Sequence record: NC_049823.1
DNA: 50,971 nucleotides
Direction: 5' to 3' (one strand)
Origin: Escherichia phage herni
Part shown: piece after piece, positions 6,687 through 50,429 of the stretch
How the letters are laid out: each line of letters starts with the position of its first letter
Position numbering within the stretch: the first letter of the stretch is position 1
Translations under genes and position numbers: made by a program
The notes under the pieces: generated by a model
The model's input: only the letters and a program-made list of their open reading frames with translations
What the model was told of the DNA's origin: nothing
Databases searched by the model: none

Positions 6687-7092
6687 TAAAGGCGATTATC
6701 TGGAGTTTTACGAAAGAGATCCGACGGATACGCTAAAAGAGGAATCACACCAGATCGGGGCGTTTCAATGGTTGACTTATGCTTACCCTGAATTGCTGGC
6801 ATGGCATACGAAAAACGAGGGCGACAAGGGGATCGCCACCGCAATGATGGATCAGCAAGCCGGACTCGTTAAGGGCGTAAGTGATTTTATCATCCTGATT
6901 GGATTAAAAGGCCGTTATCCGTTTGCAGCAATTGAGATGAAGCGCGTCAATAAGTCTGGAAAGGGTAAGGCTTCACCAGTCAGTAAGGAGCAAAAAGCCT
7001 TCTTACGACGTGTGCGCGAGCTTGGCGGATTCGCTGCCGTAACATACGGATATAAGCAATTCATGATCGCTGTAGAATACATGATGAAATAG
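6673..7092 (+). CDS. VRR-NUC domain nuclease
   Basis: PD-(D/E)XK-like core GVSDFIIL...IEMK; start at MAMTDKG (AAGGA Shine-Dalgarno) overlaps the helicase stop. Confidence 0.55.
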   Translation: MAMTDKGDYLEFYERDPTDTLKEESHQIGAFQWLTYAYPELLAWHTKNEGDKGIATAMMDQQAGLVKGVSDFIILIGLKGRYPFAAIEMKRVNKSGKGKASPVSKEQKAFLRRVRELGGFAAVTYGYKQFMIAVEYMMK

Positions 7093-9956: not shown

Positions 9957-10172
9957 ATGAAAGATTTTTTAAACGCTGCAACTTCCGGCACTGGCGGAGC
10001 GTCAATCACTGGCGCGGTAACTGGTCAAACAACTATTGCAATAGCCAGCTTCGTTTTGATGGCTGCATTTGGTATGTGGGGCGCTTATCTTCGCTGGCGT
10101 GATAGTAAGGCGCTACGTGACGCGCTTGAATGCGGTGATATTAAGAAAGCTATTGAGATCAGAGGTAAATAA
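9957..10172 (+). CDS. holin (likely pinholin partner of the SAR endolysin)
   Basis: 71 aa, hydrophobic segment [21 protein letters not shown], charged C-terminus; immediately upstream of and overlapping the endolysin start. Confidence 0.6.
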
Positions 10173-10660
10173 TGAGTATAAAACAAAGAGTGACCGCTGC
10201 GGCTTTTGGCGTTGCTCTTGCCCTTACTTCTCCGCTACTGGAGGAAATAGAAGGAGTAAAACATAAGCCGTACAAAGATATTGCTGGGGTATGGACGGTT
10301 TGCGCCGGAATAACTGGCCCTGACGTAATACAAGGCAAAACGTACACACAAAGAGAGTGCGATGCACTACTGGCGAAGCATATCAAGATCGCAAAGGATG
10401 AAGTTGATAAGCGTGTAAAGGTTGACATTCCTGATACAATGCGCGCAGCAATGTATTCATTCACATACAATGCTGGAACTGGAGCTTTTAGAAATTCAAC
10501 CATGCTTAAGCTGATTAATAACGGTCGTTATATGGAAGCGTGCGATCAGTTATGGAGATGGACAAAATACACCAATCCAAAAACAGGAAAGAAAGAAACG
10601 TCTAAAGGACTGCGCAACCGCCGCGCGGTGGAATTTAAATATTGCATTAAGGATCTGTAA
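10172..10660 (+). CDS. SAR endolysin (T4-type lysozyme fold with signal-anchor-release N-terminus)
   Basis: Weakly hydrophobic Gly/Ala-rich N-terminal segment [17 protein letters not shown] followed by E-x8-D-x5-T catalytic spacing ([19 protein letters not shown]). Confidence 0.8.
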
Positions 10661-10662
10661 TT

Positions 10663-11061
10663 ATGCGAAAGTTATCAATAATCGCTATCGCTGTTATTTT
10701 GTCTGGATGTTCAAGCGTTACGCCACTGACCGGATTAATAGGTAGCAAGCCGGAAATCACAGCACAGGCAGGATCGGAGAACGTAAAGCAGGCCGTTGGC
10801 GTTACCGCAAAGCAGGACACCAGCACAAAACAGGAAACTACAATAAAGGAATCTGCGGTTGATAAGGTGGACACTTCCAGCAAGAAGGATTTCACTACGT
10901 CAACCATTCATGCAAACACCATCAAGGCTGATAAAATCCAGGTTGTGCAGGGTGAGCAAAGGAAGTGGTACGATCCTATAATCTATTGCGCTGCAATTTT
11001 CAGTGGTCTTTTGTCAATGCTTTACTTTTCCTACCGCAAAGGCAACGAAAAGGAGGCTTAA
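10663..11061 (+). CDS. unimolecular spanin (outer-membrane lipoprotein with C-terminal transmembrane helix)
   Basis: Lipobox LSGC at N-terminus, Thr/Lys-rich linker, C-terminal helix IIYCAAIFSGLLSMLYF; architecture of the T1 gp11 class. Confidence 0.65.
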   Translation: MRKLSIIAIAVILSGCSSVTPLTGLIGSKPEITAQAGSENVKQAVGVTAKQDTSTKQETTIKESAVDKVDTSSKKDFTTSTIHANTIKADKIQVVQGEQRKWYDPIIYCAAIFSGLLSMLYFSYRKGNEKEA

Positions 11062-11077
11062 CGCCTCCTTTGTTTTA
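11052..11077. terminator. bidirectional rho-independent terminator between convergent lysis and leftward genes
   Basis: Hairpin GGAGGC-ttaac-GCCTCC flanked by T-runs on both strands. Confidence 0.55.
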
Positions 11078-11311
11078 TAGTGAATCCATCAAATCTTGAA
11101 AGCTGTTTCCGCTATAATCATTCTCTACAAGAATGTAAGCACCTTTCTTCTTTATATCCCATAACATTTCATTGTATTCGTAACGATTTATTTCAAACGT
11201 GCTGCCATCTTCTCTTGTCGCAGTTCCTTTGTCATTGAAAACATCAAAAGTTACATTGATGATTTTTGTCTCTTTCTTTGTTACTTTGATAGCCATTTTT
11301 AAAATCCTCAT
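11075..11311 (-). CDS. hypothetical protein (78 aa)
   Basis: ORF track; GAGGA Shine-Dalgarno upstream of ATG 11311. Confidence 0.5.
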   Translation of the reverse strand: MRILKMAIKVTKKETKIINVTFDVFNDKGTATREDGSTFEINRYEYNEMLWDIKKKGAYILVENDYSGNSFQDLMDSL

Positions 11312-11355
11312 ATTCGTTCCGATGAAACAAATATACCCGATACGAGATCGGGAGT

Positions 11356-11375
11356 TTTAACAAAAAGTGCTATTC
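11356..11375 (-). promoter_or_regulatory. conserved intergenic motif (minus orientation), hairpin, TATATT
   Basis: Reverse complement of AAATAGCACTTTTTGTTAAAA; contains the stop of the upstream minus gene. Confidence 0.4.
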
Positions 11376-11564
11376 GATACGCTTTACAGTAACCAACAAA
11401 ACGCCGTCCTCATCACACAAATTATGCTCTGATATGTTAAACGCTCGCATGTCAGAATGAATTAGCGTTAACATTGCGTGCATGAAGTCTTCATGTGAGA
11501 TTGAACTTACGGCGCAGAACTTCAATATTTTGTCTATTAGCATTTGACGTAAACAGTTCTTCAT
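11370..11564 (-). CDS. hypothetical protein; start uncertain
   Basis: ORF track; overlaps the upstream gene by about 70 nt unless it starts at an internal Met (MHAMLTL, 11474). Confidence 0.3.
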   Translation of the reverse strand: MKNCLRQMLIDKILKFCAVSSISHEDFMHAMLTLIHSDMRAFNISEHNLCDEDGVLLVTVKRIE

Positions 11565-11883
11565 CGCTCATTTCTCCGATCCGTAAAACATCCCTAACCC
11601 ATTCGTTTTGCATACCTTCCAGGCTGTAAAGTTCAAACGAGAAAGGGCGATTTGCGGATCCTTTCTTACACCAGAACTTTCCACCAACTCCATCAAGATA
11701 ACCAGCTGTCATCATTCTTGCGCAAAACTCTTTTGAAACGGCAGTAGCAAACATTCTCGGCGTAAATCCTGCGGCCCTTGCGAGCCGCTCACATTCTCTA
11801 TGCTGAAAGATAAATTTTGCTATATGTTGACGCGTAAACCATTCGAATGACTCACACCAGCGATACAGATCCAGAAGAAACAT
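11491..11883 (-). CDS. hypothetical protein (130 aa)
   Basis: ORF track; start overlaps the stop of the upstream ATPase gene (TAATTATG). Confidence 0.45.
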   Translation of the reverse strand: MFLLDLYRWCESFEWFTRQHIAKFIFQHRECERLARAAGFTPRMFATAVSKEFCARMMTAGYLDGVGGKFWCKKGSANRPFSFELYSLEGMQNEWVRDVLRIGEMSDEELFTSNANRQNIEVLRRKFNLT

Positions 11884-11885
11884 AA

Positions 11886-13470
11886 TTACCCCAGCAATGT
11901 TGGATTTACAAAAACAACGCCATTAATCACACAAATATAATTTCTTTCTTCAAGCATCGGCAGCAGTTGCGTTTCCATACGCTTCATTACGCCAGCCTGG
12001 CCAACAAACGGCTTAACTTTTCGTGCAGCCTCATATATGGCGCGAACATTCAAGATCCCATTGTTAGCCTTACCGTGTCGAGTGATAATCTCGATTAGTT
12101 TACCCATTTCAGCATCATCACCAGCATAGCCAGAAGCGTTGGCGGAGCTAATGTATGTTTTGCTCAACTCGCTAAACATCAGCAGTGCTTCTTGAACGGT
12201 TTCAACTTCAATCTCTTTCGACTTCTGAGGGTATCCACCAGGATTAAACCAGTCGCGGATAGTGTGCAAAACCGAAGCAATCCTGATCACCTGCTTATCC
12301 ATTTTGCCAAGAGCACCGCGCAGCATTGTATGCGAATACTTTCCGCCATCAGCAAGGTGCGGCTCCATCTCCTGACGAGCCATGTTAAGAACTCGCATTG
12401 CGGATTTGCTGATCTTAAGCTGGATGTTTGATTCACTCATGATGTTATGGATCAGCTTAAAATATTGACTTTTCAGTTCTCCATCAACAGGCTCATAAGT
12501 AGAATCACCGTTATCATCAACAAACTTTCGACGACCTAAAAATGATTCCTCACGCACAAGCAAATAACGCTCACTCACACCGATACCGCGCGATCCTGCA
12601 TCCATGATGGCATTGATTGTTTCATCCTGGGCAATCACCGCCATACAGCCAAGAGCTTTAAAACTCATATTGTTGTCAGCGTTTGCACGAGCTATAGAAA
12701 CATGACCATGATCCCATGCTTTCAGCACAAGTTCGCTGTTGGTTTTACGTTCGCTATTAGCATATGTCAGACCTAAAAGGCTGTTAATACTCGTTGCCTC
12801 GTCTGAAATCACAGCAAAGTTACCCTGGCGATTGTTGATTCTTGCAAGTCCTTCCGGCGTGGTGTCGGACACAGGGAAAACAATGTCACACATCTTTTCC
12901 AATTTTTCTTCCAGATCTTCTTTCTCCTGGTACAGAGATTCCATATCAGCGCCGGAGCGCTCGCTTTTCATCTCTTTTGCAAGACCTGCCAACTTTGCCT
13001 GAATCTTTTTTCTTTCCTTCTTTCGCTGATCGTTAATTCTTTCCACTTCTGCAACCATTGGAGCAAGTGCCAGGCTGTTAACGGCAGATTTACCAGTTGA
13101 AGGAGGCTGACTTGTGACAACATAAAGAGCGGTCGGCTGATCCGTTCCGTGATACTCAACCGTGAAGCGTCCAAGCATTGCAGCAGACACGCAGCCGATA
13201 AAATGCATATATGCCGATGATTCAGGGAACTGAACTGAGCGAGCAATGTTGCGCGCCAACTTACCAACAACATCAACATCATTGCCAAGAGAAATTACAG
13301 GGTAGCGATCATTTCCGTTATTAACATCATTAACCTCACCCCAAAAGCTGGACGATTGACGGTATCCGTTTGCCTGAATGGACACGCGCACCGGAGACAA
13401 TCCTTGTGCATCAGCTAATTCGATAATTTGTTTTGGTGTTAGTTTGTTGGTTTCAAACGAAAAATTCATT
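11886..13470 (-). CDS. P-loop ATPase, DnaB/DUF3987-like (possible helicase or primase-associated)
   Basis: Walker A QPPSTGKSAV resembling the DnaB H1 motif, Walker B-like AVISDEA; start at MNFSFETNKL (ATG 13470, AAGGAG Shine-Dalgarno). Confidence 0.55.
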
Positions 13471-13524
13471 GATGATAACTCCTTTTTTTGATGCGGCAAT
13501 AATACCGCACCAATGCTACCCGCA

Positions 13525-13544
13525 TTTAACAAAAAATGCTATTT
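13525..13544 (-). promoter_or_regulatory. conserved intergenic motif (minus orientation)
   Basis: TTTAACAAAAAATGCTATTT; contains the TAG stop of the gene ending at 13539. Confidence 0.4.
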
Positions 13545-13760
13545 GATCCGCTCTATGCTAACTAAGATTTTTTCTGGTTCCCTTGCGCTATGGCAATGCG
13601 CGGTTACGGAATCAGCAAAATCAAAATAAAGTGATTTGTGGTAAGAAAGACCAATCAGCCATCCAACCATCGTTTTCTTTATTGGCCTGACTATATCGCC
13701 AGGCTTGAAGGTTTTTGTTGCTGAATGAGTCACCTTATAGCGATATTCAGCCTTGATCAC
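13539..13760 (-). CDS. hypothetical protein (73 aa)
   Basis: ORF track; start overlaps the upstream stop. Confidence 0.45.
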   Translation of the reverse strand: MIKAEYRYKVTHSATKTFKPGDIVRPIKKTMVGWLIGLSYHKSLYFDFADSVTAHCHSAREPEKILVSIERIK

Positions 13761-14143
13761 TTATACATAGCCTCAAATAAATGACAGCCACCAGCGGAAA
13801 ATCCTACTTCTTCGCGGTATAGCGTCCAGCGGTCGCCAGCTTCATCAAAAACATAACCAGCAACAGCACCAAGCGCGCGACCTTGCTCAATCTGGTAGCG
13901 CTTTCCTTCTTTGAAATGCTTTTTGCACGGGATCTTGTGATCTACAAATGTGCATTTAATTGTTTTTGTCTTGATATGACGATAGTCAGACTCAACAGCG
14001 TTTTGCCACTTGCTACCCTTTGTAATGCTCTTTACCTGGAATTGTTCCAACTCGATCACATCATCGCTACCAGCAATTTTTTCGTATACAGCTTTATAAC
14101 GACCGTTCATCAAAACGTTGGTTTTATTGCAGATAACTTTCAT
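13757..14143 (-). CDS. hypothetical protein (128 aa)
   Basis: ORF track; AAGGAGA Shine-Dalgarno upstream of ATG 14143. Confidence 0.5.
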   Translation of the reverse strand: MKVICNKTNVLMNGRYKAVYEKIAGSDDVIELEQFQVKSITKGSKWQNAVESDYRHIKTKTIKCTFVDHKIPCKKHFKEGKRYQIEQGRALGAVAGYVFDEAGDRWTLYREEVGFSAGGCHLFEAMYK

Positions 14144-14199
14144 CGTTTATTTCTCCTTTCGTTTCGGTGAAGTGATTATGCCAGGCTTTTACACCTGGC

Positions 14200-14220
14200 T
14201 TTTAACAAAAAGTGCTATTT
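14200..14220 (-). promoter_or_regulatory. conserved intergenic motif (minus orientation) with hairpin GCCAGG-n7-CCTGGC and ATAAT
   Basis: TTTTAACAAAAAGTGCTATTT; contains the stop of the methyltransferase gene. Confidence 0.45.
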
Positions 14221-14925
14221 TGCGTTTGCTTCAAAGACGGCGCGAGCAAAACCGCGCGGTGTGAGGGAGCGGATCATCTTTGTGCGAGACGATTTTCCGC
14301 CAGTTTTGGCCCAACCAGGATTATCCTTGTCGCCATCTTTAGGAATGATTGTTGCGCGCGGAGGAATAACAAATCCGTTTCCAGTCCAAAGGCATGTTTT
14401 CTTAAAGTACCGATCCCGTGCCGGAATAATATCAGGAAAGTCGGGATGTTTATCATCTTCCGGCAGATAGCCAGCATAATCGCACGGATGGAACGTATAA
14501 TCAGGCTTGCGCCATAGCGTTGACAGCTTGCCTACAGGATTCTCTATCATGTACGGAACACCGAAATAATCAGCAATTTGCGCCGCTATTTTGCAAGTGT
14601 CGGCGGCTTCATCCTGGAACGATGGATTCTCAATGCGTTTTTTAGCCCAATGGCGAGATCCGCTATTTGCAAGGTCAGTGCATGGAGGGAACGCCATAAT
14701 AAAATCAGGCTTACCCCAATTTTCAAGTTTTGCGGTATATTTGAATAGATCATCAATCCACGCGTTAACGTAAAAGATATTGTCATGGATTATGCGCACT
14801 GAGTGGTAATCACCGTGATCAGCATCATCGTAATTAAAGCAAATGCATTTATATCCAGCATCAGCCCAATCTTTAACGGCTTTACCAGATCCATCAAACA
14901 AAGAGAAAATTAAACCCTTATACAT
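14215..14925 (-). CDS. putative DNA cytosine-5 methyltransferase
   Basis: Motif I-like FSLFDGSG, motif IV-like FPPCTDLANSG (PC dipeptide), motif VI-like IENPVG; GAGGTGA Shine-Dalgarno. Confidence 0.55.
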   Translation of the reverse strand: MYKGLIFSLFDGSGKAVKDWADAGYKCICFNYDDADHGDYHSVRIIHDNIFYVNAWIDDLFKYTAKLENWGKPDFIMAFPPCTDLANSGSRHWAKKRIENPSFQDEAADTCKIAAQIADYFGVPYMIENPVGKLSTLWRKPDYTFHPCDYAGYLPEDDKHPDFPDIIPARDRYFKKTCLWTGNGFVIPPRATIIPKDGDKDNPGWAKTGGKSSRTKMIRSLTPRGFARAVFEANAK

Positions 14926-14934
14926 TTCATCACC

Positions 14935-15159
14935 TCAAAACGGAAAGCATCGCGGACAGTTAGGATCAAAATTGCAGCCGCAATCATTAACAATCATCGT
15001 TGGATCTGCAAATGCAGCACCGCATTCATGTTCCATATCCATTTCACCCAACGCATCATCAAGTGTCCTGATCTTATATGCAACTTCAAGAGCAGCCTCT
15101 TTATTCAGCCCAGCATCTTCCGCTTTTTGCAGTCGCTCAAAAAATCCGTCCTGGCTCAT
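14935..15159 (-). CDS. small Cys-rich hypothetical protein (possible zinc binding)
   Basis: ORF track; C-terminal CGCNFDPNCPRC cluster. Confidence 0.45.
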   Translation of the reverse strand: MSQDGFFERLQKAEDAGLNKEAALEVAYKIRTLDDALGEMDMEHECGAAFADPTMIVNDCGCNFDPNCPRCFPF

Positions 15160-15269
15160 TTCATAAGCTCCTTGATAACAATCAGAATAGTAGCAATAAC
15201 AGCAGTGACAACTAAAAGACCAGCAAGGCTCATCATCACACCAAATAAAATATCAAGAAATTTCGTCAT
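15156..15269 (-). CDS. possible 37-aa single-pass membrane protein
   Basis: MTKFLDILFGVMMSLAGLLVVTAVIATILIVIKELMK; AGGTGA Shine-Dalgarno; stop overlaps the next start (ATGA). Confidence 0.35.
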   Translation of the reverse strand: MTKFLDILFGVMMSLAGLLVVTAVIATILIVIKELMK

Positions 15270-15315
15270 TATTATCACCTTTATTTAAAGGGAGGCGAAA
15301 CCTCCCGTTTATTAA

Positions 15316-15543
15316 TTAGATAGCCTTCCAACTTTCAATGAACATGCTGTTCTCTTCAAGAAGTTTAATCAATTCTTCGCGCGTATATTTGCGGATTTTA
15401 CTACCTGGATGCGAGCCAACAACAAACACACCTTTACCGCTCGTGATTGTTAACTGGTTGATTCCGCAAGATTTATCCATCTTAATGGCGACGCGGTGAT
15501 GTGCATCAACAGTGTGCATGATGTTAGTGATTTTGGCTTTCAT
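15316..15543 (-). CDS. hypothetical protein (75 aa)
   Basis: ORF track; GAGGAT Shine-Dalgarno. Confidence 0.5.
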   Translation of the reverse strand: MKAKITNIMHTVDAHHRVAIKMDKSCGINQLTITSGKGVFVVGSHPGSKIRKYTREELIKLLEENSMFIESWKAI

Positions 15544-15717
15544 TATGCAATCCTCATTATATTTGGTGTGGTAACTATATCAGGTTTGAGAAATATTGTT
15601 TAGCAATTTGTGCTATCAGTTGAAATAGCTATGGCGATTTGCTCGCTTTCCGTCTCCGCCATAATGATCATTAGAAACGGGAATCATCCAGGAATTATGA
15701 AATATTATTAGTCTCAT

Positions 15718-15999
15718 CTAATTAATGCCAACAACGTTAAAACTTACAGCTTTTGTTGCGCTAAACACATACGCTTCAACAGCCTCACCAAATACACGAA
15801 TTTTTCCCTGGCCGTACTGCGCATTCATATTGCGCCAAACCGTCCTGTTAGAACAGAACGCGCTACCAGTCTTGATAAGATTATCCATCTCTTTCCTTAG
15901 ATCATGATAATCAAGCCAGAATCTATAAGCGCGTTGTTTAATGAGTTGTGCCTTGATTGTTTCAGTTGAGTTTTTAAAATCGCTGTTTGTGTAGGACAT
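15718..15999 (-). CDS. hypothetical protein (93 aa)
   Basis: ORF track; GGAGG Shine-Dalgarno; start overlaps the upstream stop. Confidence 0.5.
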   Translation of the reverse strand: MSYTNSDFKNSTETIKAQLIKQRAYRFWLDYHDLRKEMDNLIKTGSAFCSNRTVWRNMNAQYGQGKIRVFGEAVEAYVFSATKAVSFNVVGIN

Positions 16000-16193
16000 T
16001 ACACAACCTCCATAAAAGTATTGAATCCACGCAGTTTGAAAGCATTGCCATGTTTAACAACGTTCCATGTCAGGCCGGAGTGATACGCAACCATATCCTC
16101 AAGATCAATGGTGATGATAGCGCCTTTCTTAAAGATTCCTTTCTCGTGAGTGGTGTCACGCTGTACAACTTTAACATCAACTTGATTTTCCAT
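15999..16193 (-). CDS. hypothetical protein (64 aa)
   Basis: Start at MENQVDVK (ATG 16193, GAGGAT Shine-Dalgarno); the track start 16244 reads through the promoter-like motif. Confidence 0.45.
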   Translation of the reverse strand: MENQVDVKVVQRDTTHEKGIFKKGAIITIDLEDMVAYHSGLTWNVVKHGNAFKLRGFNTFMEVV

Positions 16194-16248
16194 CTTTAAA
16201 TCCTCGTTCGTTGTCGATGGATGTAATATACCATTCAGGCGCATAACG

Positions 16249-16269
16249 TTTTTAACAAAAAGTGCTATT
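16249..16269 (-). promoter_or_regulatory. conserved intergenic motif (minus orientation)
   Basis: TTTTTAACAAAAAGTGCTATT; contains the stop of the gene ending at 16265. Confidence 0.4.
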
Positions 16270-16555
16270 CAACAACAGATCCAGTTAAAGAGATAAGTGC
16301 CCTTGTGATCTTGTGTCTGCGATACTGACGCGCAACAACCGGAAGATTTTCACCGCTTTGATGACCGAAGCAGATCGGCAACTCACCTTCAAGCGATCGG
16401 AATCCGCCAAATTCAAGATCACGCACAGGCTTTGAGCGCCACGCTTCAATAAATCCGCGTTCGTCACGCGTGATATAGCGGTATATGTTCGGGAGGGGCA
16501 ATTGTATCCCCTCAAAATCCACTGTATCGGTATAGCTGTAAAACTTAGAACTCAT
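16265..16555 (-). CDS. hypothetical protein (96 aa)
   Basis: Start at MSSKFYS (16555), overlapping the stop of a small upstream ORF. Confidence 0.45.
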   Translation of the reverse strand: MSSKFYSYTDTVDFEGIQLPLPNIYRYITRDERGFIEAWRSKPVRDLEFGGFRSLEGELPICFGHQSGENLPVVARQYRRHKITRALISLTGSVVE

Positions 16556-16697
16556 AGTCAACAACTCCAAATTCGTTAACAATTTGCGCCTTATAGAATC
16601 CGCCATTTTTCGCCAGGTTATAACATGCCGCTACAGTTTCAAATTCGCGCACTTCCGGCTGGCTGTTTTCGTGTTCCCAGGTAATCAGAGTAACCAT
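16545..16697 (-). CDS. hypothetical protein (50 aa)
   Basis: MVTLITWEHENSQPEV...; GAGGAT Shine-Dalgarno; not in track (below 60 aa). Confidence 0.35.
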   Translation of the reverse strand: MVTLITWEHENSQPEVREFETVAACYNLAKNGGFYKAQIVNEFGVVDYEF

Positions 16698-16755
16698 TTT
16701 CAAATCCTCGCATTCGTTATCGATGTGTGTAATGTACAGGAATACGAGGATTGAG

Positions 16756-16776
16756 TTTTAACAAAAAGTGCTATTT
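16756..16776 (-). promoter_or_regulatory. conserved intergenic motif (minus orientation)
   Basis: TTTTAACAAAAAGTGCTATTT; contains the stop of the gene ending at 16775. Confidence 0.4.
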
Positions 16777-17041
16777 AGTCCAGGAATTCGATTTCGCGCT
16801 CGCCAGTTAACGGATCTTTAATCCAGAATCCTAGCGCCTCACCGTAAATACCGCCATAGAATCCAAGCGCCGACAGATCTTCACCTTTAACGAATGCCAG
16901 GTTTCCGCTACGGCTTACGTGAGACACGTTAACGATAACCGGAAAGGTGCGATCCTTAAACGCAGGCCGCAGGGCGTAACACCCGTTATTGAGCAAACGT
17001 GCTTTGCGCTTAACTGGAATAGGTGCATTGATTCGCGCCAT
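16775..17041 (-). CDS. hypothetical protein (88 aa)
   Basis: ORF track; AAGGAGA Shine-Dalgarno. Confidence 0.5.
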   Translation of the reverse strand: MARINAPIPVKRKARLLNNGCYALRPAFKDRTFPVIVNVSHVSRSGNLAFVKGEDLSALGFYGGIYGEALGFWIKDPLTGEREIEFLD

Positions 17042-17054
17042 CTTTATTTCTCCT

Positions 17055-17300
17055 TCATTGTTGATCGTGTTTAACTGCCATCAGAATATCACAGGACTCG
17101 TTAATAAATTTTGCCATGCGCTTATCATCACCATCAGGGATTAGCGCGTTAAACTCGCGTTTGCTACTGAACACAGTCACTTTATGGAATGATGCGAACG
17201 GCATCGACGGGAACTCGACTGTTTGCGTCAAGATCCGCAAACCCATCTTTTTGGCCCTTACCTGGGCCTCGGCAAGTTCAAAATCCACTTCACTAATCAT
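17055..17300 (-). CDS. hypothetical protein (81 aa)
   Basis: Start at MISEVDF (17300), overlapping the upstream stop. Confidence 0.45.
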   Translation of the reverse strand: MISEVDFELAEAQVRAKKMGLRILTQTVEFPSMPFASFHKVTVFSSKREFNALIPDGDDKRMAKFINESCDILMAVKHDQQ

Positions 17301-17569
17301 TTCTTGATCTCCTCGGCAATAAACTTCAGGACTTTGCGCAAAAAAACTTCGTTGTTGATGGTTGCTGGCAATTCCTCTTTCACTTCTTGCGGCAGATAGA
17401 TATTGTCGTGCCAGGTTAAGCAATCGTAATTGATACGATAAGAGCAAAGCCACTCGCAATCGTTATCCGCTTCCCAAATGCAGAGTTGCAGAACATCGCC
17501 AAAATCCTCAACAGTCAGATCCAGACCGTGACGCTTTGCAAAGTTGAAAGTGGTTTTGCTGATGTTCAT
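17297..17569 (-). CDS. hypothetical protein (90 aa), first gene of the leftward early block
   Basis: ORF track; AGGAGA Shine-Dalgarno. Confidence 0.5.
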   Translation of the reverse strand: MNISKTTFNFAKRHGLDLTVEDFGDVLQLCIWEADNDCEWLCSYRINYDCLTWHDNIYLPQEVKEELPATINNEVFLRKVLKFIAEEIKK

Positions 17570-17631
17570 TGCTATCTCCTGATGGGTATCTCGTTTCGAT
17601 GTGTCTAATGTACCCGATCAGGGCAATTCAG

Positions 17632-17652
17632 TTTTAACAAAAAGTGCTATTT
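17632..17652 (-). promoter_or_regulatory. conserved intergenic motif (minus orientation) heading the leftward block
   Basis: TTTTAACAAAAAGTGCTATTT about 60 nt upstream of the gene starting at 17569. Confidence 0.45.
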
Positions 17653-17791
17653 GCTTACTGGTTATTATTCCACCTATTCCATTAATCAGGAATAACAGGA
17701 ATAAATCATTCGCGATCACCTGGATTGTGAGACTTTGAGTTTGATCAATTTTAATCAAGTGATTAACTTTTTGTGTGGAGGGGATAGAGAA

Positions 17792-17869
17792 ATGTGGCCC
17801 TCTTGCGTCCTTTCCTGCAATCCTGGCGCGCACAACTGTTATTTCTGTTCCTCGTGTTATCTCAAATAA
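17792..17869 (+). CDS. possible 25-aa Cys-rich micro-ORF
   Basis: MWPSCVLSCNPGAHNCYFCSSCYLK with GGAGG Shine-Dalgarno 10 nt upstream; function unknown. Confidence 0.2.
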   Translation: MWPSCVLSCNPGAHNCYFCSSCYLK

Positions 17870-17891
17870 GCCTCCGCACTTTGAGATAACA
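17855..17891. repeat. perfect 12-bp inverted repeat TGTTATCTCAAA / TTTGAGATAACA with 13-nt loop
   Basis: Read directly from sequence; overlaps the stop codon of the micro-ORF. Confidence 0.6.
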
Positions 17892-17934
17892 GGATTGGCG
17901 TTCACCAACAAAAAGAACAAAATAAAATTTATAT

Positions 17935-18115
17935 ATATACCCATAAAATCAATAAGTTAGTTATATATGTATTTATATTTGTTATTTACTGTTGTGCTTG
18001 TTCTGTGGGTATATGGTGGTGTGGTATTGTTTGTGGTGATATATATGTGTGATTGTATATTTTTTAATCAATTGTGATGTGTGGTGATTTTTGTATGTAT
18101 ATATATGGGTATGAA
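17935..18115. repeat. AT-rich then TG-rich low-complexity element (copy A), homologous to 47450-47650
   Basis: AAATCAATAAGTTAG..TATATAT.TATTTATATTTGTT core followed by (TG)n-like tracts. Confidence 0.5.
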
Positions 18116-18239
18116 GTAATCCTCCGTCAACCAAGTCAACAAGGTCATTTTTAACATAAAAACCAATGACTTAACTGAAGCATTTTGTTATCTTTAAACG
18201 CGCCACGTGCCAAAAATTGTTGTTAAAACACAAAATATA

Positions 18240-18268
18240 TTGACATGCAGGAAAGGCAAGGCAATAAT
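18240..18268 (+). promoter_or_regulatory. sigma70-like promoter (TTGACA, 17 nt, AATAAT)
   Basis: Near-consensus -35 and spacer length about 37 nt upstream of the gene at 18305. Confidence 0.5.
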
Positions 18269-42635: not shown

Positions 42636-45600
42636 ATGGCTGAAAATATGATAACGGGCAGTAAGGGTGGATCATCAAAACCTTATGTTCCGAAAGAGAT
42701 GGAAGATAACCTGATCTCAATCAACAAAATCAAAATACTTCTTGCCGTTTCCGATGGTGAGTGCGATCCAAGTTTTACACTTCGCGATCTGTATCTTGAT
42801 GATGTTCCGGTAATTGCAGACGACGGAACTGTTAACTACCAGGGTGTGAAAGCTGAATTTCGACCTGGAACGCAGACGCAAGATTACATCCAGGGATTTA
42901 CTGACACATCAAGCGAAGTGACGCTGGCGCGTGACATTACTACATCAAATCCTTATGTAATTTCTGTAACCAACAAAACATTATCGGCTATCAGAATCAA
43001 AATGCTAATGCCAACAGGCATTAAGCAAGAGGATAACGGCGATCTTGTCGGCGTTAAGGTTACTTATGCTGTTGATATGGCTGTTGACGGAGACTCTTAC
43101 AAAGAAGTATTGCTAGACACCATCGAAGGTAAAACGCGTTCCGGTTACGACAGAAGCCGAAGGATTGACCTTCCGGCATTTAATGATCGCGTATTGCTTA
43201 GGGTTAGAAGGGTTACGGCAGACAGCGCATCCTCTCGCGTTACTGATCTGATTAAGCTACAAAGTTACGCTGAGGTTATTGATGCAAAATTCCGTTATCC
43301 TCTGACTGGTCTTGTATACGTTGAACTTGACAGTGAGTTGTTCCCTAACCAGATCCCTAACATTTCAATCAAGAAGAAATGGAAGTTAATTAATGTTCCG
43401 AGCAATTACGATCCAGTAATGCGAGAGTATCACGGTTCATGGGATGGTACTTTCAAGAAAGCGTGGTCGAACAATCCGGCGTGGGTTCTTTATGACATTA
43501 TCACAAACCAGCGATACGGATTAGATCAGCGAGAACTTGGCGTGCAGGTTGACAAATGGAGTCTTTACGAAGCGGCGCAATACTGCGATCAGAAAGTGCC
43601 GGATGGAAAAGGCGGTACAGAGCCGCGTTATCTATGCGACGTTGTGATTCAAAGCCAGATTGAGGCTTATCAGCTTATTCGTGATATTTGCTCAATCTTC
43701 CGAGGCATGAGCTTTTGGAATGGCGAGAGCTTGTCAATCGTCATTGATAAGCCGCGCGATCCGTCGTACATCTTCACCAATGACAACGTTGTTGATGGTG
43801 ATTTTCAGTACACAACAGCAAGCGAAAAGAGCATGTACACGCAGTGCAACGTGACGTTCGACGACGAACAAAACATGTACCAACAGGACGTAGAGGGCGT
43901 ATTCGACACCGAGGCAGCATTGCGATTTGGATACAATCCTACAAGCATAACAGCGATTGGATGTACACGCAGGAGTGAGGCTAATCGGCGCGGTCGATGG
44001 ATACTAAAAACTAACTTGCGCAGCACTACGGTAAACTTTGCTACTGGACTGGAAGGCATGATCCCATCAATAGGTGATGTGATTGCTATTGCTGACAACT
44101 TTCACAGCAGCAACCTTAAGTTAAACCTATCAGGGCGCGTGATGGAAGTTTCAGGCTTGCAGGTGTTCGCTCCGTTTAAGATTGACGCGCGACCAGGTGA
44201 TTTCATTATCATCAACAAGCCAGACGGGAAGCCAGTTAAGCGCACAATCTCAAAAGTAAGCGGTGACGGAAAAACCATTGAGCTAAATATTGGGTTTGGA
44301 TTTGAGGTTAAACCTGACACGGTTTTTGCAATCGACCGCACTGATATTGCATTGCAGCAATACGTTGTAACGAGTATCGGCAAAGGTGATGATGATGATG
44401 AATTTACATACTCCATCACGGCTGTTGAATATGACCCGAACAAATACGACGAGATTGATTATGGAGTAAACATTGACGACAGGCCAACTTCAATTGTCCA
44501 GCCTGACACAATGGCAGCGCCTGAAAATGTGCAAATATCCTCCTACTCGCGAATTGTCCAGGGTGCAAGCGTTGAAACAATGGTTGTGTCGTGGGATAAA
44601 GTACCTTACGCATCGCTGTATGAAATGCAGTGGCGAAAAGGTGATGGCAACTGGCTGAATACACCACAGACTGCAAACAAAGAAATTGAGGTTGAAGGTA
44701 TTTATTCAGGAAACTACCAGGTAAGGGTTAGATCTGTTTCTGCTTCAGGTTCGACGTCGCCGTGGTCCAGAATTGTAACAGCTTCACTGACTGGTAAGGT
44801 AGGAGAGCCAGGCGCGCCAGTTAACTTAACTGCATCCGACAATGAGGTGTTTGGCATTCGTGTTAAGTGGGGGATGCCAGAAGGCAGCGGAGACACGGCA
44901 TACATTGAGCTTCATCAGTCGCCGGATGGAACGGCTGAAAACTCAAGCCTGTTAACTCTGATCCCATATCCACAATATGAATACTGGCACGGTACGCTTC
45001 CGGCTGGTCATGTTGTATGGTATAGAATCCGCAGTGTTGACAGAATCGGCAACGTTTCCGGATGGACTGATTTTGTTAGAGGCATGGCTTCAGATGATGT
45101 GGAGGCTGTTTTAGGCAATATTCTTGATAAGATTTTTGATACCGAAGCAGGGAAGGATCTGAAAGAGAATGCCATTGATAGCGCAAACAAAATCAAGGAT
45201 CAGGCGCAAAGCATCATTCAAAACGCATTGGCGAATGATGCAGACGTTAGGATTATGAGGAAGGAAAACGGAAAACGCAAAGCCGAATTCAGGCAATCAA
45301 TACAGTTGATCGCAGATGAAACTGAGGCGCGCGTTACCGCAATGACGCAACTCAAGGCTGAATTTGACGAGGAAATAACTAGCGAAGTAACGAGGCTTGA
45401 TCAGGCAATTGCAACAGAATCGGAAACGCGAGCAACAGCCATTGAGGAATTGAAATCACAGATTGGAGATGATATTCAGGGGCAGTTAACGAGAGTTGAG
45501 GAGGCGATTGCAAGCGAAACAGAGGCGCGCGTTTCTGCTGACACAGCATTAACAGCGAAGTTTGGAGATGTTGAATCAGCGCTGACGGAAAAACTTGATT

Positions 45601-49979: not shown

Positions 49980-50429
49980 ATGCATATTATTACTGGTGAG
50001 ATCCGAAAAGAGCCGCGAGTAAAGCAAATGCCTAACGGCAGCACACTTTATGTGGTTGAGCTTTCAGAGCGATACAAAGATAAAGATGGAAACTGGCAAT
50101 ATACAAACTACAGTTTCTTTTTTAATGCTAAAACAGAAGGTCTTAAGGGTTGGTATGATGAGGCGTTCCAGGTTGGCAAGGTTATTTCTTTATCTTGCGA
50201 CACGCTGCGCATTGAGACGCGTGAATATAACGGAAAGATGTATTCAAGTTTAATGCCAGGAGGATTTGCAAATCTTATCTTCAGCCAGCGCGGTGAAAGC
50301 CAGCAACAATATCAGCAGCGAACGCAAGGAGGATGGGGCCAACAACAACAGAATCAACCGCAACAACCTCAACAGCCAAGACAAAGCAATCAACCTCCTA
50401 TGGACTTTGACGACGACATCCCTTTCTGA
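49980..50429 (+). CDS. ssb: single-stranded DNA-binding protein
   Basis: OB-fold-like N-terminal region, Gln/Gly-rich linker, acidic C-terminal tail DFDDDIPF. Confidence 0.8.
   Translation: MHIITGEIRKEPRVKQMPNGSTLYVVELSERYKDKDGNWQYTNYSFFFNAKTEGLKGWYDEAFQVGKVISLSCDTLRIETREYNGKMYSSLMPGGFANLIFSQRGESQQQYQQRTQGGWGQQQQNQPQQPQQPRQSNQPPMDFDDDIPF

What the first reader, a model, noticed from the sequence alone, without database searches (positions are those of the whole stretch)
11075..17569. Leftward block of about 20 small ORFan genes as candidate host-takeover or anti-defence reservoir
The block is tightly packed, often with ATGA/TAATG overlaps, and is punctuated by the conserved motif. It includes a Cys-rich 74-aa protein (CGCNFDPNCPRC), a 37-aa membrane peptide and many 50-130 aa proteins with no recognisable family. 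In phages this kind of region typically holds anti-restriction, anti-CRISPR or host-shutoff genes.
Basis: inference. Interest (0 to 1): 0.5.

Follow-up and report, generated by a model that had tools for sequence, protein, structure and literature searches.

The report
T1-like phage early gene block
This is the leftward early/DNA-metabolism arm of a T1-like coliphage already in GenBank: a conserved helicase and methylase core plus a variable set of small genes, two from families known to set off bacterial abortive-infection defences, none shown to inhibit one.

Summary
Positions 11075-17569 hold 18 tightly packed leftward genes (92% coding, ATGA/GTGA/TAATG overlaps). They are split into about 8 units by six copies of a 20-nt promoter-associated motif.

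Two parts of the description are wrong. The genes are not ORFans, and they are not all small. The window is a Hanrivervirus (Drexlerviridae), 99.5% identical to phage vB_EcoS_G29-2. The block corresponds to T1 ORFs ST10-ST1.

Comparison with 24 full-length relatives splits the block in two:
- **Conserved core** (g2, g3, helicase, g6, methylase, g8, g10).
- **Variable promoter-proximal part** (g11-g18, plus g1 and g9).

Two genes belong to families shown experimentally to trigger defences. g6 is 75% identical to the SECphi27 protein that triggers Mokosh type I. g13 is a Gp54-family protein; Bas11 Gp54 triggers CapRelSJ46.

No known anti-defence family matched. Strong avoidance of 6-bp palindromes argues against a general anti-restriction protein. 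The anti-defence reading is plausible for the variable half but unproven.

The parts
11049..11071 (.). Hairpin AAAGGAGGC-TTAAC-GCCTCCTTT between the convergent lysis cassette and g1; likely bidirectional terminator closing the block
   Evidence: annotated as a terminator in G29-2
11075..11296 (-). g1, 73 aa, phrog_10679, unknown function; variable (3 of 24 full-flank relatives)
11355..11374 (-). Motif copy 1 (promoter-associated 20-mer), followed by 19 nt and TATATT; drives g1
11370..11564 (-). g2, 64 aa, phrog_9539; overlaps the g3 3' end by 74 nt; present in 24 of 24 relatives, including an unannotated T1 ORF (44002-44193)
11491..11883 (-). g3, 130 aa, phrog_2794 (T1 ST10); starts 2 nt after the helicase stop; conserved SDEELF motif; core gene, probably a helicase partner (inference)
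11886..13469 (-). g4, 527 aa, DUF3987 / phrog_2373 'DNA helicase' (T1 ST9); Walker A motif PPSTGKS
13524..13543 (-). Motif copy 2 (2 mismatches), then 19 nt and TATTAT; drives g4-g3-g2
13539..13760 (-). g5, 73 aa, GTG start overlapping the g6 stop; phrog_12725; weak SH3-like sequence hits (E 0.4); 17 of 24 relatives
13757..14143 (-). [not shown]
14200..14219 (-). Motif copy 3, then 19 nt (containing a hairpin) and CATAAT; drives g6-g5
14215..14925 (-). g7, 236 aa, C5-cytosine methyltransferase-like (phrog_757). Invariant FDGSG, FPxCT and ENPV motifs. No Pfam PF00145 hit. Present in 23 of 24 relatives, absent from T1.
14935..15159 (-). g8, 74 aa, the Cys-rich protein (phrog_9323; T1 ST6). Acidic helical N-domain, optional CxC-x5-CxxC knuckle, near-invariant C-terminal Pro-Phe tip. 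Core gene, 23 of 24.
15156..15269 (-). g9, 37-aa single-pass membrane peptide. The ORF is kept, with hydrophobic substitutions, only in Hanrivervirus/Warwickvirus relatives; it occupies an insertion slot between g10 and g8.
15290..15306 (-). GC-rich hairpin GGGAGG-TTTCG-CCTCCC after g10; terminator-like
15316..15543 (-). g10, 75 aa, phrog_4344 (T1 ST5), unknown function; 20 of 24. Preceded by a sigma-70-like site, CTGATA-16-TATAAT, at 15583-15556.
15616..15717 (-). g11, 33-aa micro-ORF (phrog_32259) with conserved NDHYGGDGKRAxRHSYFN. Found in 21 of 44 loci, also where g12 is absent. Fused in frame to g12 only in phage egaa.
15718..15999 (-). g12, 93 aa, no PHROG or Pfam family; only in close relatives (6 of 24). 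The 'homing endonuclease' label in one GenBank record is not supported.
15999..16193 (-). g13, 64 aa, Pfam PF25180 'Phage antiviral trigger protein Gp54' (3.3e-37). Matches PDB 9AXB at 1.8e-13. Has V7 and A25 where Bas11 Gp54 needs A7 and I25 to activate CapRelSJ46.
16250..16269 (-). Motif copy 4, then 19 nt and TATATT; drives g13-g12-g11
16265..16555 (-). g14, 96 aa, phrog_1972, unknown; variable (7 of 24)
16545..16697 (-). g15, 50 aa, Pfam DUF7170 (1.8e-28), acidic; 13 of 24
16756..16775 (-). Motif copy 5, then 19 nt and TACATT; drives g15-g14
16775..17041 (-). g16, 88 aa, matches the C-terminal part of phrog_9595 and of T1 ST71 (on the other arm in T1); 8 of 24
17055..17300 (-). g17, 81 aa, no family; 4 of 24
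17297..17569 (-). g18, 90 aa, phrog_6147, acidic (pI 4.8), 4 Cys. First gene of the block. 97% identical in SECphi27 although its helicase is only 88% identical. 12 of 24.
17632..17651 (-). Motif copy 6, then 19 nt and TACATT; first promoter of the block (just outside the stated coordinates)

Best explanation
The block is the leftward early/DNA-metabolism arm of a Hanrivervirus (T1-like, Drexlerviridae) genome, equivalent to T1 ORFs ST10-ST1. It sits between the lysis cassette and the AT-rich divergent control region.

It is probably transcribed as about eight short units. Six start at a family-wide promoter-associated element (a 20-mer, 19 nt, then a -10-like hexamer). One starts at a conventional sigma-70-like site.

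It has two functional halves:
1. A conserved core (g10, g8, C5-methyltransferase-like g7, g6, g5, DUF3987 helicase g4, g3, g2). It accompanies the helicase in every relative and most likely acts on phage DNA replication and modification.
2. A promoter-proximal variable set (g18-g11, plus g9 and g1) of small accessory proteins. These most likely bind host factors.

Shown here: gene content, organisation, conservation pattern and family membership. Taken from the literature: the g6 and g13 families are directly or indirectly sensed by Mokosh type I and CapRelSJ46. Inferred: that any gene inhibits a defence system; that g6's conserved C-terminal half is a Gp54-like barrel and a distant paralogue of g13; and that g8 uses an SSB-like C-terminal Pro-Phe tip to dock onto SSB-interacting proteins.
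For: - **Identity:** 99.5% to vB_EcoS_G29-2 and 94-99% to other Hanriverviruses.
- **T1 map:** g2-g3-g4, g6, g8 and g10 correspond to the ST10 region, ST9, ST7, ST6 and ST5.
- **Families:** DUF3987 at 2.3e-43 and PHROG helicase at 1.9e-244. PHROG methyltransferase at 8.5e-86, with invariant FDGSG / PC / ENPV motifs.
- **Two-part conservation** in 24 full-flank relatives. Core genes occur in 17-24 of 24; variable genes occur in 3-15 of 24.
- **Promoter element:** 17 copies against 0.02 expected, co-oriented with genes. Every copy is followed after 19 nt by a -10-like hexamer and an RBS-bearing leader. The element is conserved in T1.
- **g6:** 75% identical to the SECphi27 Mokosh type I trigger, whose escape allele is E7fs.
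- **g13:** Gp54 family; Bas11 Gp54 binds and activates CapRelSJ46 and is non-essential (PMC11578894).
- **g8:** the family ends in [IVLF]P[FW] in 20 of 22 distant short members. The phage SSB ends in DDDIPF.
Against: - No transcription data were available, so the promoter role of the motif is inferred. Its spacing does not fit a canonical -35 element.
- The function of every small protein remains untested.
- The g6 model is only moderately confident (pLDDT 73.7, and lowest in the C-terminal half). The sequence-level g6-g13 signal is weak.
- The g8 tip in this phage is RCFPF, without the acidic residues of the SSB tip. Two distant members carry an extra C-terminal Trp.
- Conservation with the helicase does not prove a replication role. 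g6 is core, yet its SECphi27 homologue tolerates a frameshift.
Confidence: 0.7

Rival explanations
1. One reading: the block as a whole is a reservoir of anti-restriction, anti-CRISPR, other anti-defence or host-shutoff genes.
For: - Small early genes next to a divergent control region.
- The variable half turns over between relatives.
- Two families are sensed by abortive-infection systems. Phage counter-defence proteins are often what such systems sense, as with Ocr and PARIS (cited in PMC11578894).
- A methyltransferase-like gene is present.
- The authors of PMC11578894 themselves speculate that Gp54 may inhibit another defence system.
Against: - No hit to any known anti-defence family.
- Half of the block is a conserved core containing a helicase.
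- Six-base palindromes are depleted 4-fold or more, for example AAGCTT at 0 against 16 expected.
- Most Drexlerviridae are reported as very RM-sensitive, with no link between methyltransferase genes and resistance.
- Gp54 and the SECphi27 128-aa protein are not toxic alone.
Confidence: 0.3
2. The whole block is a replication/recombination module; the small proteins are helicase loaders, origin binders or replisome adaptors with no role in host immunity.
For: - The helicase sits in the centre, and g3 starts 2 nt after its stop.
- g2, g3, g6, g8 and g10 co-occur with it in all relatives down to T1.
- The g8 tip resembles the SSB tip used for replisome contacts.
Against: - g11-g18, g1 and g9 are absent from most relatives that keep the helicase.
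- The g6 homologue and Gp54 are dispensable in the laboratory.
- The main primase, the SNF2 helicase and the recombination genes lie elsewhere in T1-like genomes.
Confidence: 0.15
3. Many of the small ORFs are not genes; they are chance reading frames in a regulatory or non-coding stretch.
For: g11 (33 aa) and g9 (37 aa) are very short. g11 lacks a clear Shine-Dalgarno sequence.
Against: - 92% coding density on one strand, with matching GC skew.
- Shine-Dalgarno sites precede 16 of the 18 genes.
- 15 of 18 have PHROG families.
- g11 and g9 keep open frames with conservative substitutions across diverged relatives.
- No Rfam or tRNA hits.
Confidence: 0.03

Closest known systems
Coliphage T1 ORFs ST10-ST1 (right-end leftward gene block, NC_005833) and the same block in Hanrivervirus genomes (vB_EcoS_G29-2, egaa, pSf-1, JakobBernoulli/Bas07)
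   Same: Same position after the holin-endolysin-spanin cassette and same strand. Same helicase with the ST10, ST7, ST6 and ST5 homologues. Same promoter-associated 20-mer. 99.5% nucleotide identity to G29-2.
   Different: T1 lacks the methyltransferase here, carries an HNH endonuclease instead of g5, and has unrelated genes in place of g11-g18. The T1 g8 homologue (ST6) has no zinc knuckle.
Gp54 of phage Bas11 (PDB 9AXB; Pfam PF25180), direct activator of the CapRelSJ46 toxin-antitoxin defence (PMC11578894)
   Same: g13 is a full-length family member: 126.5 bits against a 27-bit cut-off, about 54% identity, with conserved FKKG, YHSG and W43. The g6 model has its best structural match to this fold.
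   Different: g13 carries V7 and A25 where Bas11 needs A7 and I25. The paper shows A7V or I25V abolishes activation, and that homologues from SECphi27, Bas5, Bas8 and Bas10 do not trigger. g13 is therefore probably not a CapRelSJ46 trigger (inference). g6 has no significant sequence similarity to Gp54.
SECphi27 128-aa protein of unknown function, trigger of Mokosh type I (Stokar-Avihail et al., bioRxiv 10.1101/2022.08.27.505566)
   Same: g6 has the same length, the same genomic position and 75% identity over 127 residues.
   Different: Activation of Mokosh by this allele was not tested. A quarter of the residues differ.
C-terminal tip of bacterial SSB (DDDIPF), the docking peptide for SSB-interacting proteins
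   Same: The g8 family has a folded N-domain, a low-confidence and often acidic linker, and a near-invariant hydrophobic-Pro-Phe/Trp carboxy terminus. The phage's own SSB ends in PPMDFDDDIPF.
   Different: g8 has no OB fold. Most members insert a CxC-x5-CxxC knuckle directly before the tip. The tip in this phage is RCFPF, without acidic residues. No binding data exist.
Dcm-type C5-cytosine DNA methyltransferases
   Same: g7 has the FxGxG, PC and ENV-type motifs in canonical order and a PHROG 'DNA methyltransferase' match. CCWGG is not depleted in the genome.
   Different: Only 236 aa. No Pfam PF00145 hit. Only marginal PDB sequence similarity, covering motifs I-IV (E 0.06). No recognisable target-recognition domain. 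Activity and specificity are unknown.

Membership tests
Gp54 family (Pfam PF25180), for g13 | Score above the Pfam gathering threshold over the full-length model | tested here: met
   126.5 bits against a 27-bit cut-off; profile positions 1-65 of 65
Gp54 family (Pfam PF25180), for g13 | Sequence similarity to the crystallised Bas11 Gp54 | tested here: met
   phmmer against PDB 9AXB, E 1.8e-13; 54% identity in alignment A8
Gp54 family (Pfam PF25180), for g13 | Activates CapRelSJ46 (needs A7 and I25 according to PMC11578894) | tested here: not met
   g13 has V7 and A25. This is a sequence-based prediction only; no assay was possible.
SECphi27-type Mokosh type I trigger, for g6 | Full-length homology to the SECphi27 128-aa protein | tested here: met
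   74.8% identity over 127 of 128 residues at the syntenic position. The sequence in the paper's supplement equals LT961732 6629-7015.
SECphi27-type Mokosh type I trigger, for g6 | Toxic only when co-expressed with Mokosh type I | not testable with these tools
   Needs a co-expression assay
Gp54-like beta-barrel fold, for g6 | Structural superposition on 9AXB clearly better than on SH3 or other small barrels | tested here: met
   [not shown]
Gp54-like beta-barrel fold, for g6 | Significant profile-profile sequence similarity to the Gp54 family | tested here: inconclusive
   hhalign P 0.009 and 0.015, probability 3-4%, same register in both runs
C5-cytosine DNA methyltransferase, for g7 | Motifs I (FxGxG), IV (PC) and VI (ENV) in order and conserved | tested here: met
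   F10-D-G-S-G14, P80-x-C82 and E128-N-P-V131 are invariant in 17 diverged homologues
C5-cytosine DNA methyltransferase, for g7 | Match to Pfam DNA_methylase (PF00145) or to solved C5-MTases | tested here: not met
   No Pfam hit at E 0.1 or below. Best PDB profile hit is DNMT3B at E 0.06, covering motifs I-IV only.
C5-cytosine DNA methyltransferase, for g7 | Target-recognition domain, motifs IX and X, and methyl-transfer activity | not tested
   RSLTPRGFA resembles motif IX by eye only. No structure was predicted and no assay was possible.
DUF3987 helicase, for g4 | Pfam DUF3987 above threshold plus a Walker A motif | tested here: met
   149.2 bits against a 27-bit cut-off. PPSTGKS is read directly in the translation.
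Known anti-defence protein families (Ocr, ArdA, KlcA/ArdB, Acr, Gam and others as represented in Pfam, NCBIfam, PHROG and PDB), all small ORFs | Sequence match to any such family | tested here: not met
   No such hit. AntiDefenseFinder and dbAPIS models were not available.
SSB C-terminal tip mimic, for g8 | Hydrophobic-Pro-Phe at the free carboxy terminus, conserved across the family | tested here: met
   P73 and F74 are at least 90% conserved in 34 sequences of 30-91% identity. 20 of 22 distant short members end in [IVLF]P[FW](W).
SSB C-terminal tip mimic, for g8 | Acidic residues directly preceding the tip | tested here: inconclusive
   Present in the knuckle-less members (DYDDFIPW, EDVDDYIPW in T1) and as one D or E in most CxxC forms. 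Absent in this phage (RCFPF).
SSB C-terminal tip mimic, for g8 | Binds the SSB-Ct pocket of ExoI, RecQ, PriA, chi or similar proteins | not testable with these tools
   Needs complex prediction or binding assays
Sigma-70 promoter, for the 20-nt motif | -10 hexamer plus a -35 hexamer at 16-18 nt spacing | tested here: inconclusive
   A -10-like hexamer lies at a fixed 19 nt after the motif in 17 of 17 copies. TTAAAA would sit at 19 nt and TTGTTA at 22 nt, so the spacing is non-canonical.

The most novel reading that the evidence does not exclude
Two readings remain open.

1. g6 and g13 may be diverged paralogues built on the same rare six-stranded Gp54 barrel. T1-like phages would then deploy a small family of such barrels as host-factor binders. 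Two mechanistically unrelated abortive-infection sensors, Mokosh type I and CapRelSJ46, would each have evolved to recognise one of them.

2. The Cys-rich g8 may be a previously undescribed kind of phage protein. It would present an SSB-like Pro-Phe carboxy-terminal tip to compete with, or bridge to, host SSB-interacting proteins such as ExoI, RecQ or PriA, or defence proteins that dock on SSB.
Probability: 0.3. Interest if true: 0.6.

Novelty: already known. Interest (0 to 1): 0.4.

Why it matters
Taken as a block, this is ordinary: a published phage genus, an annotated region and known gene families. Its value is as a map. It separates the genes worth screening for counter-defence (g1, g9, g11-g18) from a conserved core. 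It links two genes to published defence triggers that the public annotations still call hypothetical.

If the g6/Gp54 fold relationship holds, it gives a structural handle on how Mokosh type I senses infection, which is still unknown. It would also suggest that different defence systems converge on one phage protein fold.

If the g8 tip docks on SSB partners, it would be a new way for a phage to rewire host DNA-repair traffic.

Tried and rejected
- **Sequence searches against PDB.** All small proteins were searched as three concatenated queries, and g3, g6, g7 and g8 as family profiles. Only g13 gave a hit (Gp54). g5 gave marginal SH3 hits at E 0.4.
- **NCBIfam.** Nothing for ten proteins.
- **All-against-all hhalign of the 18 families.** No significant pair. 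g6-g13 ranked third at P 0.009.
- **BFVD Foldseek with the g6 model.** Only uncharacterised members of its own family.
- **Rfam and tRNA scans.** Empty.
- **Literature.** The motif string gave no paper. A search for a phage SSB-tip mimic gave nothing relevant. The RAZR triggers of SECphi27 are a recombinase and the portal, not genes of this block.
- **GenBank labels not supported** by any profile search here: 'YdbL' (g3), 'MORN repeat' and 'phosphoglucomutase' (g6), 'polyribonucleotide nucleotidyltransferase' (g10), 'homing endonuclease' (g12).
- **g11 as a pseudogene remnant of g12.** Rejected. The in-frame TAG is the rule in 7 of 8 relatives, and g11 occurs without g12.
- **g5 homologue search.** The last homologue search returned only 8 close relatives, so no structure was attempted.

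Full report
**What the window is.** The stretch 11075-17569 is 99.5% identical to Escherichia phage vB_EcoS_G29-2 and 94-99% identical to other Hanrivervirus genomes (Drexlerviridae, T1-like). 311 phage records match at least part of it. In those records the region is annotated as hypothetical proteins plus a 'DNA helicase' and a 'DNA methyltransferase'. It follows the rightward holin-endolysin-spanin cassette (9957-11061). It ends at an AT-rich divergent region (17945-18244). GC skew is negative exactly across it.

**Checking the observation.** Using the starts supported by Shine-Dalgarno sites and by the relatives' annotations, I count 18 minus-strand genes (g1-g18), with 92.3% of the bases coding.
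- The 74-aa Cys-rich protein and the 37-aa membrane peptide are also there.
- The 'conserved motif' is AATAGCACTTTTTGTTAAAA. It has 17 copies in the window against 0.02 expected, six of them in or at the edge of the block and all on the coding strand.
- 'About 20 small ORFans' overstates the case. Two genes are large: g4, a 527-aa protein with Pfam DUF3987 at 2.3e-43, and g7, a 236-aa protein matching PHROG 757 'DNA methyltransferase' at 8.5e-86.
- 15 of the 18 genes fall in PHROG families; two of those 15 also match Pfam families, PF25180 and DUF7170.
- No Rfam family or tRNA lies in the region.

**Organisation.** Every motif copy is followed after exactly 19 variable nucleotides by a -10-like hexamer (CATAAT, TATATT, TACATT, TATTAT, TATAGT). 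A leader of about 30 nt with an RBS comes next. The motif fills five of the seven intergenic gaps of 46 nt or more, and it also precedes g18.
- The gap before g10 has a conventional sigma-70-like site. The gap after g10 has a GC-rich hairpin.
- The likely units are [g18 g17 g16] [g15 g14] [g13 g12 g11] [g10] [g9 g8 g7] [g6 g5] [g4 g3 g2] [g1]. The block closes at a bidirectional hairpin at 11049-11071.
- The same 20-mer with the same spacing occurs in T1, so it is a family-wide element.
- Its spacing does not fit a canonical -35 hexamer. Whether it is an UP-like element or a factor-binding site is open. I found no paper containing the sequence.

**Conservation splits the block in two.** I anchored on the helicase and fetched 38 IMG/VR loci, then added T1, SECphi27 and four GenBank relatives. 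Each protein was searched against all of them by tblastn. The counts below come from the 24 loci with complete flanks.

| Group | Gene(s) | Present in (of 24) |
|---|---|---|
| Core | g2, g3, g4, g6 | 24 |
| Core | g7, g8 | 23 |
| Core | g10 | 20 |
| Core | g5 | 17 |
| Variable | g11 | 15 |
| Variable | g13, g15 | 13 |
| Variable | g18 | 12 |
| Variable | g16 | 8 |
| Variable | g14 | 7 |
| Variable | g12 | 6 |
| Variable | g9, g17 | 4 |
| Variable | g1 | 3 |

In T1 the core corresponds to ST10 (g3), ST9 (g4), ST7 (g6), ST6 (g8) and ST5 (g10). An unannotated ORF overlapping ST10 corresponds to g2. T1 lacks the methyltransferase here. So the promoter-distal half is a conserved module built around a helicase. 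The promoter-proximal half behaves like an accessory region.

**Links to published immunity work.**
- *g13* scores 126.5 bits on Pfam PF25180 'Phage antiviral trigger protein Gp54'. It matches the crystallised Bas11 Gp54 (9AXB) at 1.8e-13.
  - Zhang et al. (PMC11578894) showed that Gp54 of Bas11 binds and activates the CapRelSJ46 toxin-antitoxin defence. It is non-essential, non-toxic alone and of unknown function.
  - They also showed that homologues from SECphi27, Bas5, Bas8 and Bas10 do not trigger, and that A7V or I25V abolishes activation.
  - g13 has V7 and A25. I therefore predict that it is a family member but not a CapRelSJ46 trigger.
- *g6* is 75% identical, at the syntenic position, to a 128-aa SECphi27 protein.
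  - The supplement of Stokar-Avihail et al. gives the sequence of that protein and an escape allele (E7fs at 6995). This identifies it as the 'protein of unknown function (128aa)' that is toxic only together with Mokosh type I.
- Both family prototypes are therefore dispensable in the laboratory and are sensed by abortive-infection systems.

**New structural link.** An AlphaFold2 model of g6 from a 41-sequence alignment is all-beta, with mean pLDDT 73.7.
- The CapRel paper calls this barrel topology very rare, with SH3 domains as nearest neighbours at z 3.8.
- Profile-profile alignment is weak but consistent. g6 residues 56-126, the half conserved down to T1, align with g13 residues 4-64 at P 0.009 in one run. 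An independent run gives the same register at P 0.015. KKxFKxGKRYQIE lies over KGIFKKGAIITID.
- I read this as likely distant paralogy, resting mainly on a moderate-confidence model.

**The Cys-rich protein g8.** Sixteen diverged homologues from the fetched loci show an invariant helical N-terminal signature, AGLN..A..VA...L..ALG.MD..E. A CxC-x5-CxxC knuckle is present in most but missing in T1.
- A full HMMER scan of 1.84 billion representatives found 31 relatives.
- Of the 22 distant members I fetched that are 91 aa or shorter, 20 end in [IVLF]P[FW], two of these with an extra Trp.
- Members without the knuckle have acidic linkers, for example ...DDEIGDYDDFIPW and, in T1, ...EDVDDYIPW.
- This resembles the SSB C-terminal tip, DDDIPF. 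The phage's own SSB (49980-50429) ends in PPMDFDDDIPF. g8 is the only other ORF of 40 aa or more in the window that ends this way.
- Caveat: in this phage the tip is RCFPF, without acidic residues.
- I found no paper describing a phage SSB-tip mimic.

**The methyltransferase-like g7.** FDGSG, FPxCT and ENPV are invariant in 17 homologues and sit in the canonical order of C5-methyltransferase motifs I, IV and VI.
- There is no Pfam PF00145 hit. PDB similarity is marginal: DNMT3B at E 0.06, covering motifs I-IV only.
- CCWGG and GATC occur at expected frequency, whereas 6-bp palindromes are strongly depleted:

| Site | Observed | Expected |
|---|---|---|
| GAATTC | 3 | 12.7 |
| AAGCTT | 0 | 16 |
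| GGATCC | 1 | 12.9 |
| GATATC | 1 | 9.9 |
| CTGCAG | 1 | 9.6 |

- Site avoidance of this strength argues against a potent general anti-restriction protein. So does the BASEL report that most Drexlerviridae are very RM-sensitive, with no simple link to their methyltransferase genes.

**Other small genes.**
- g9 is a real insertion. Its frame is kept with hydrophobic substitutions in Hanrivervirus and Warwickvirus relatives. The same slot holds other membrane peptides or nothing elsewhere.
- g11 is an independently conserved 33-aa ORF (NDHYGGDGKRAxRHSYFN). It occurs in 21 of 44 loci, with or without g12. Only phage egaa fuses the two.
- g18 is the first gene of the block. It is acidic and 97% identical in SECphi27, whose helicase is only 88% identical.
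- g1, g12, g14, g15 (DUF7170), g16 and g17 remain without any functional lead.

**Verdict.** The block is real, dense and punctuated by a promoter-associated motif. It is already in public databases and is not made of ORFans. The anti-defence reservoir idea is a fair hypothesis for the variable half. It is indirectly encouraged by the two trigger families, but nothing here shows inhibition of any defence, and about half of the block looks like conserved DNA-metabolism machinery. The two points worth following up are the g6/Gp54 fold relationship and the SSB-like tip of g8.

Noticed in passing
window 4570, 7088, 8108, 19039, 19502, 20548, 21781, 24429 (+); 32939, 36699, 47366 (-): Eleven more copies of the 20-mer AATAGCACTTTTTGTTAAAA lie outside the block, each with a -10-like hexamer 19 nt downstream. 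Three are antisense to the rightward structural genes. The element is conserved in T1, yet its spacing does not fit a canonical -35. It may be a factor-dependent or UP-type promoter element of the whole family.
   Followed up: partly
whole window: Six-base palindromes are strongly depleted: AAGCTT 0 against 16 expected, GGATCC 1 against 12.9, GATATC 1 against 9.9, CTGCAG 1 against 9.6, GAATTC 3 against 12.7. GATC and CCWGG occur at expectation. This is restriction-site avoidance that spares Dam and Dcm sites.
   Followed up: partly
window 49980-50429 (+): The phage-encoded SSB ends in PPMDFDDDIPF, the same tip as E. coli SSB. The phage SSB can therefore presumably engage host SSB-interacting proteins.
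   Followed up: no
window 17945-18244: An AT-rich divergent intergenic region with direct repeats (GTGTGGT..TATATATGTGT at 18019 and 18079) and several short inverted repeats. The deposited end of the G29-2 genome maps at about 17785, just beside this region, so the window is a circular permutation of that record. The region may hold pac or control sites.
   Followed up: no
window 17618-17944 (-): A 108-aa ORF (g19) with a hydrophobic N-terminus and no Shine-Dalgarno sequence. It is annotated in Bas07 but not in G29-2, and the first motif copy lies inside its 3' end. Relatives occur in only 4 of 24 loci. It is doubtful as a gene.
   Followed up: partly
L043 (T1, NC_005833) 44002-44193 (-): T1 has an unannotated 64-codon ORF that overlaps the 3' end of ST10 and is 47% identical to g2. 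The g2/g3 overlap is conserved across the family, so T1 probably has one more gene than annotated.
   Followed up: partly
window 11491-11883 (g3), residues 105-111: g3 homologues share an invariant acidic motif, SDEELF (D107, L110, F111), near the C-terminus. In some relatives the alignment ends there. It could be another short docking motif next to the helicase.
   Followed up: no
L003 (phage egaa) 5342-5725: In phage egaa the TAG between g12 and g11 is CAG, giving a fused 127-aa ORF. All seven other relatives with both genes keep the stop.
   Followed up: yes
GenBank records of relatives: Several product names for these genes look spurious, with no support from Pfam, PHROG or NCBIfam here: 'YdbL' (g3), 'MORN repeat-containing protein' and 'phosphoglucomutase/phosphomannomutase' (g6), 'polyribonucleotide nucleotidyltransferase' (g10), and 'putative homing endonuclease' (g12). 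A g8 homologue in Pseudomonas phage Motto is also labelled 'putative cytosine DNA methylase'.
   Followed up: partly
and host tallies: About 20 records named 'Campylobacter phage' (for example A118 and A14b) carry this block at 70-80% protein identity. That is unexpected for a T1-like enterobacterial phage lineage and may reflect contamination or mislabelling of those records.
   Followed up: no
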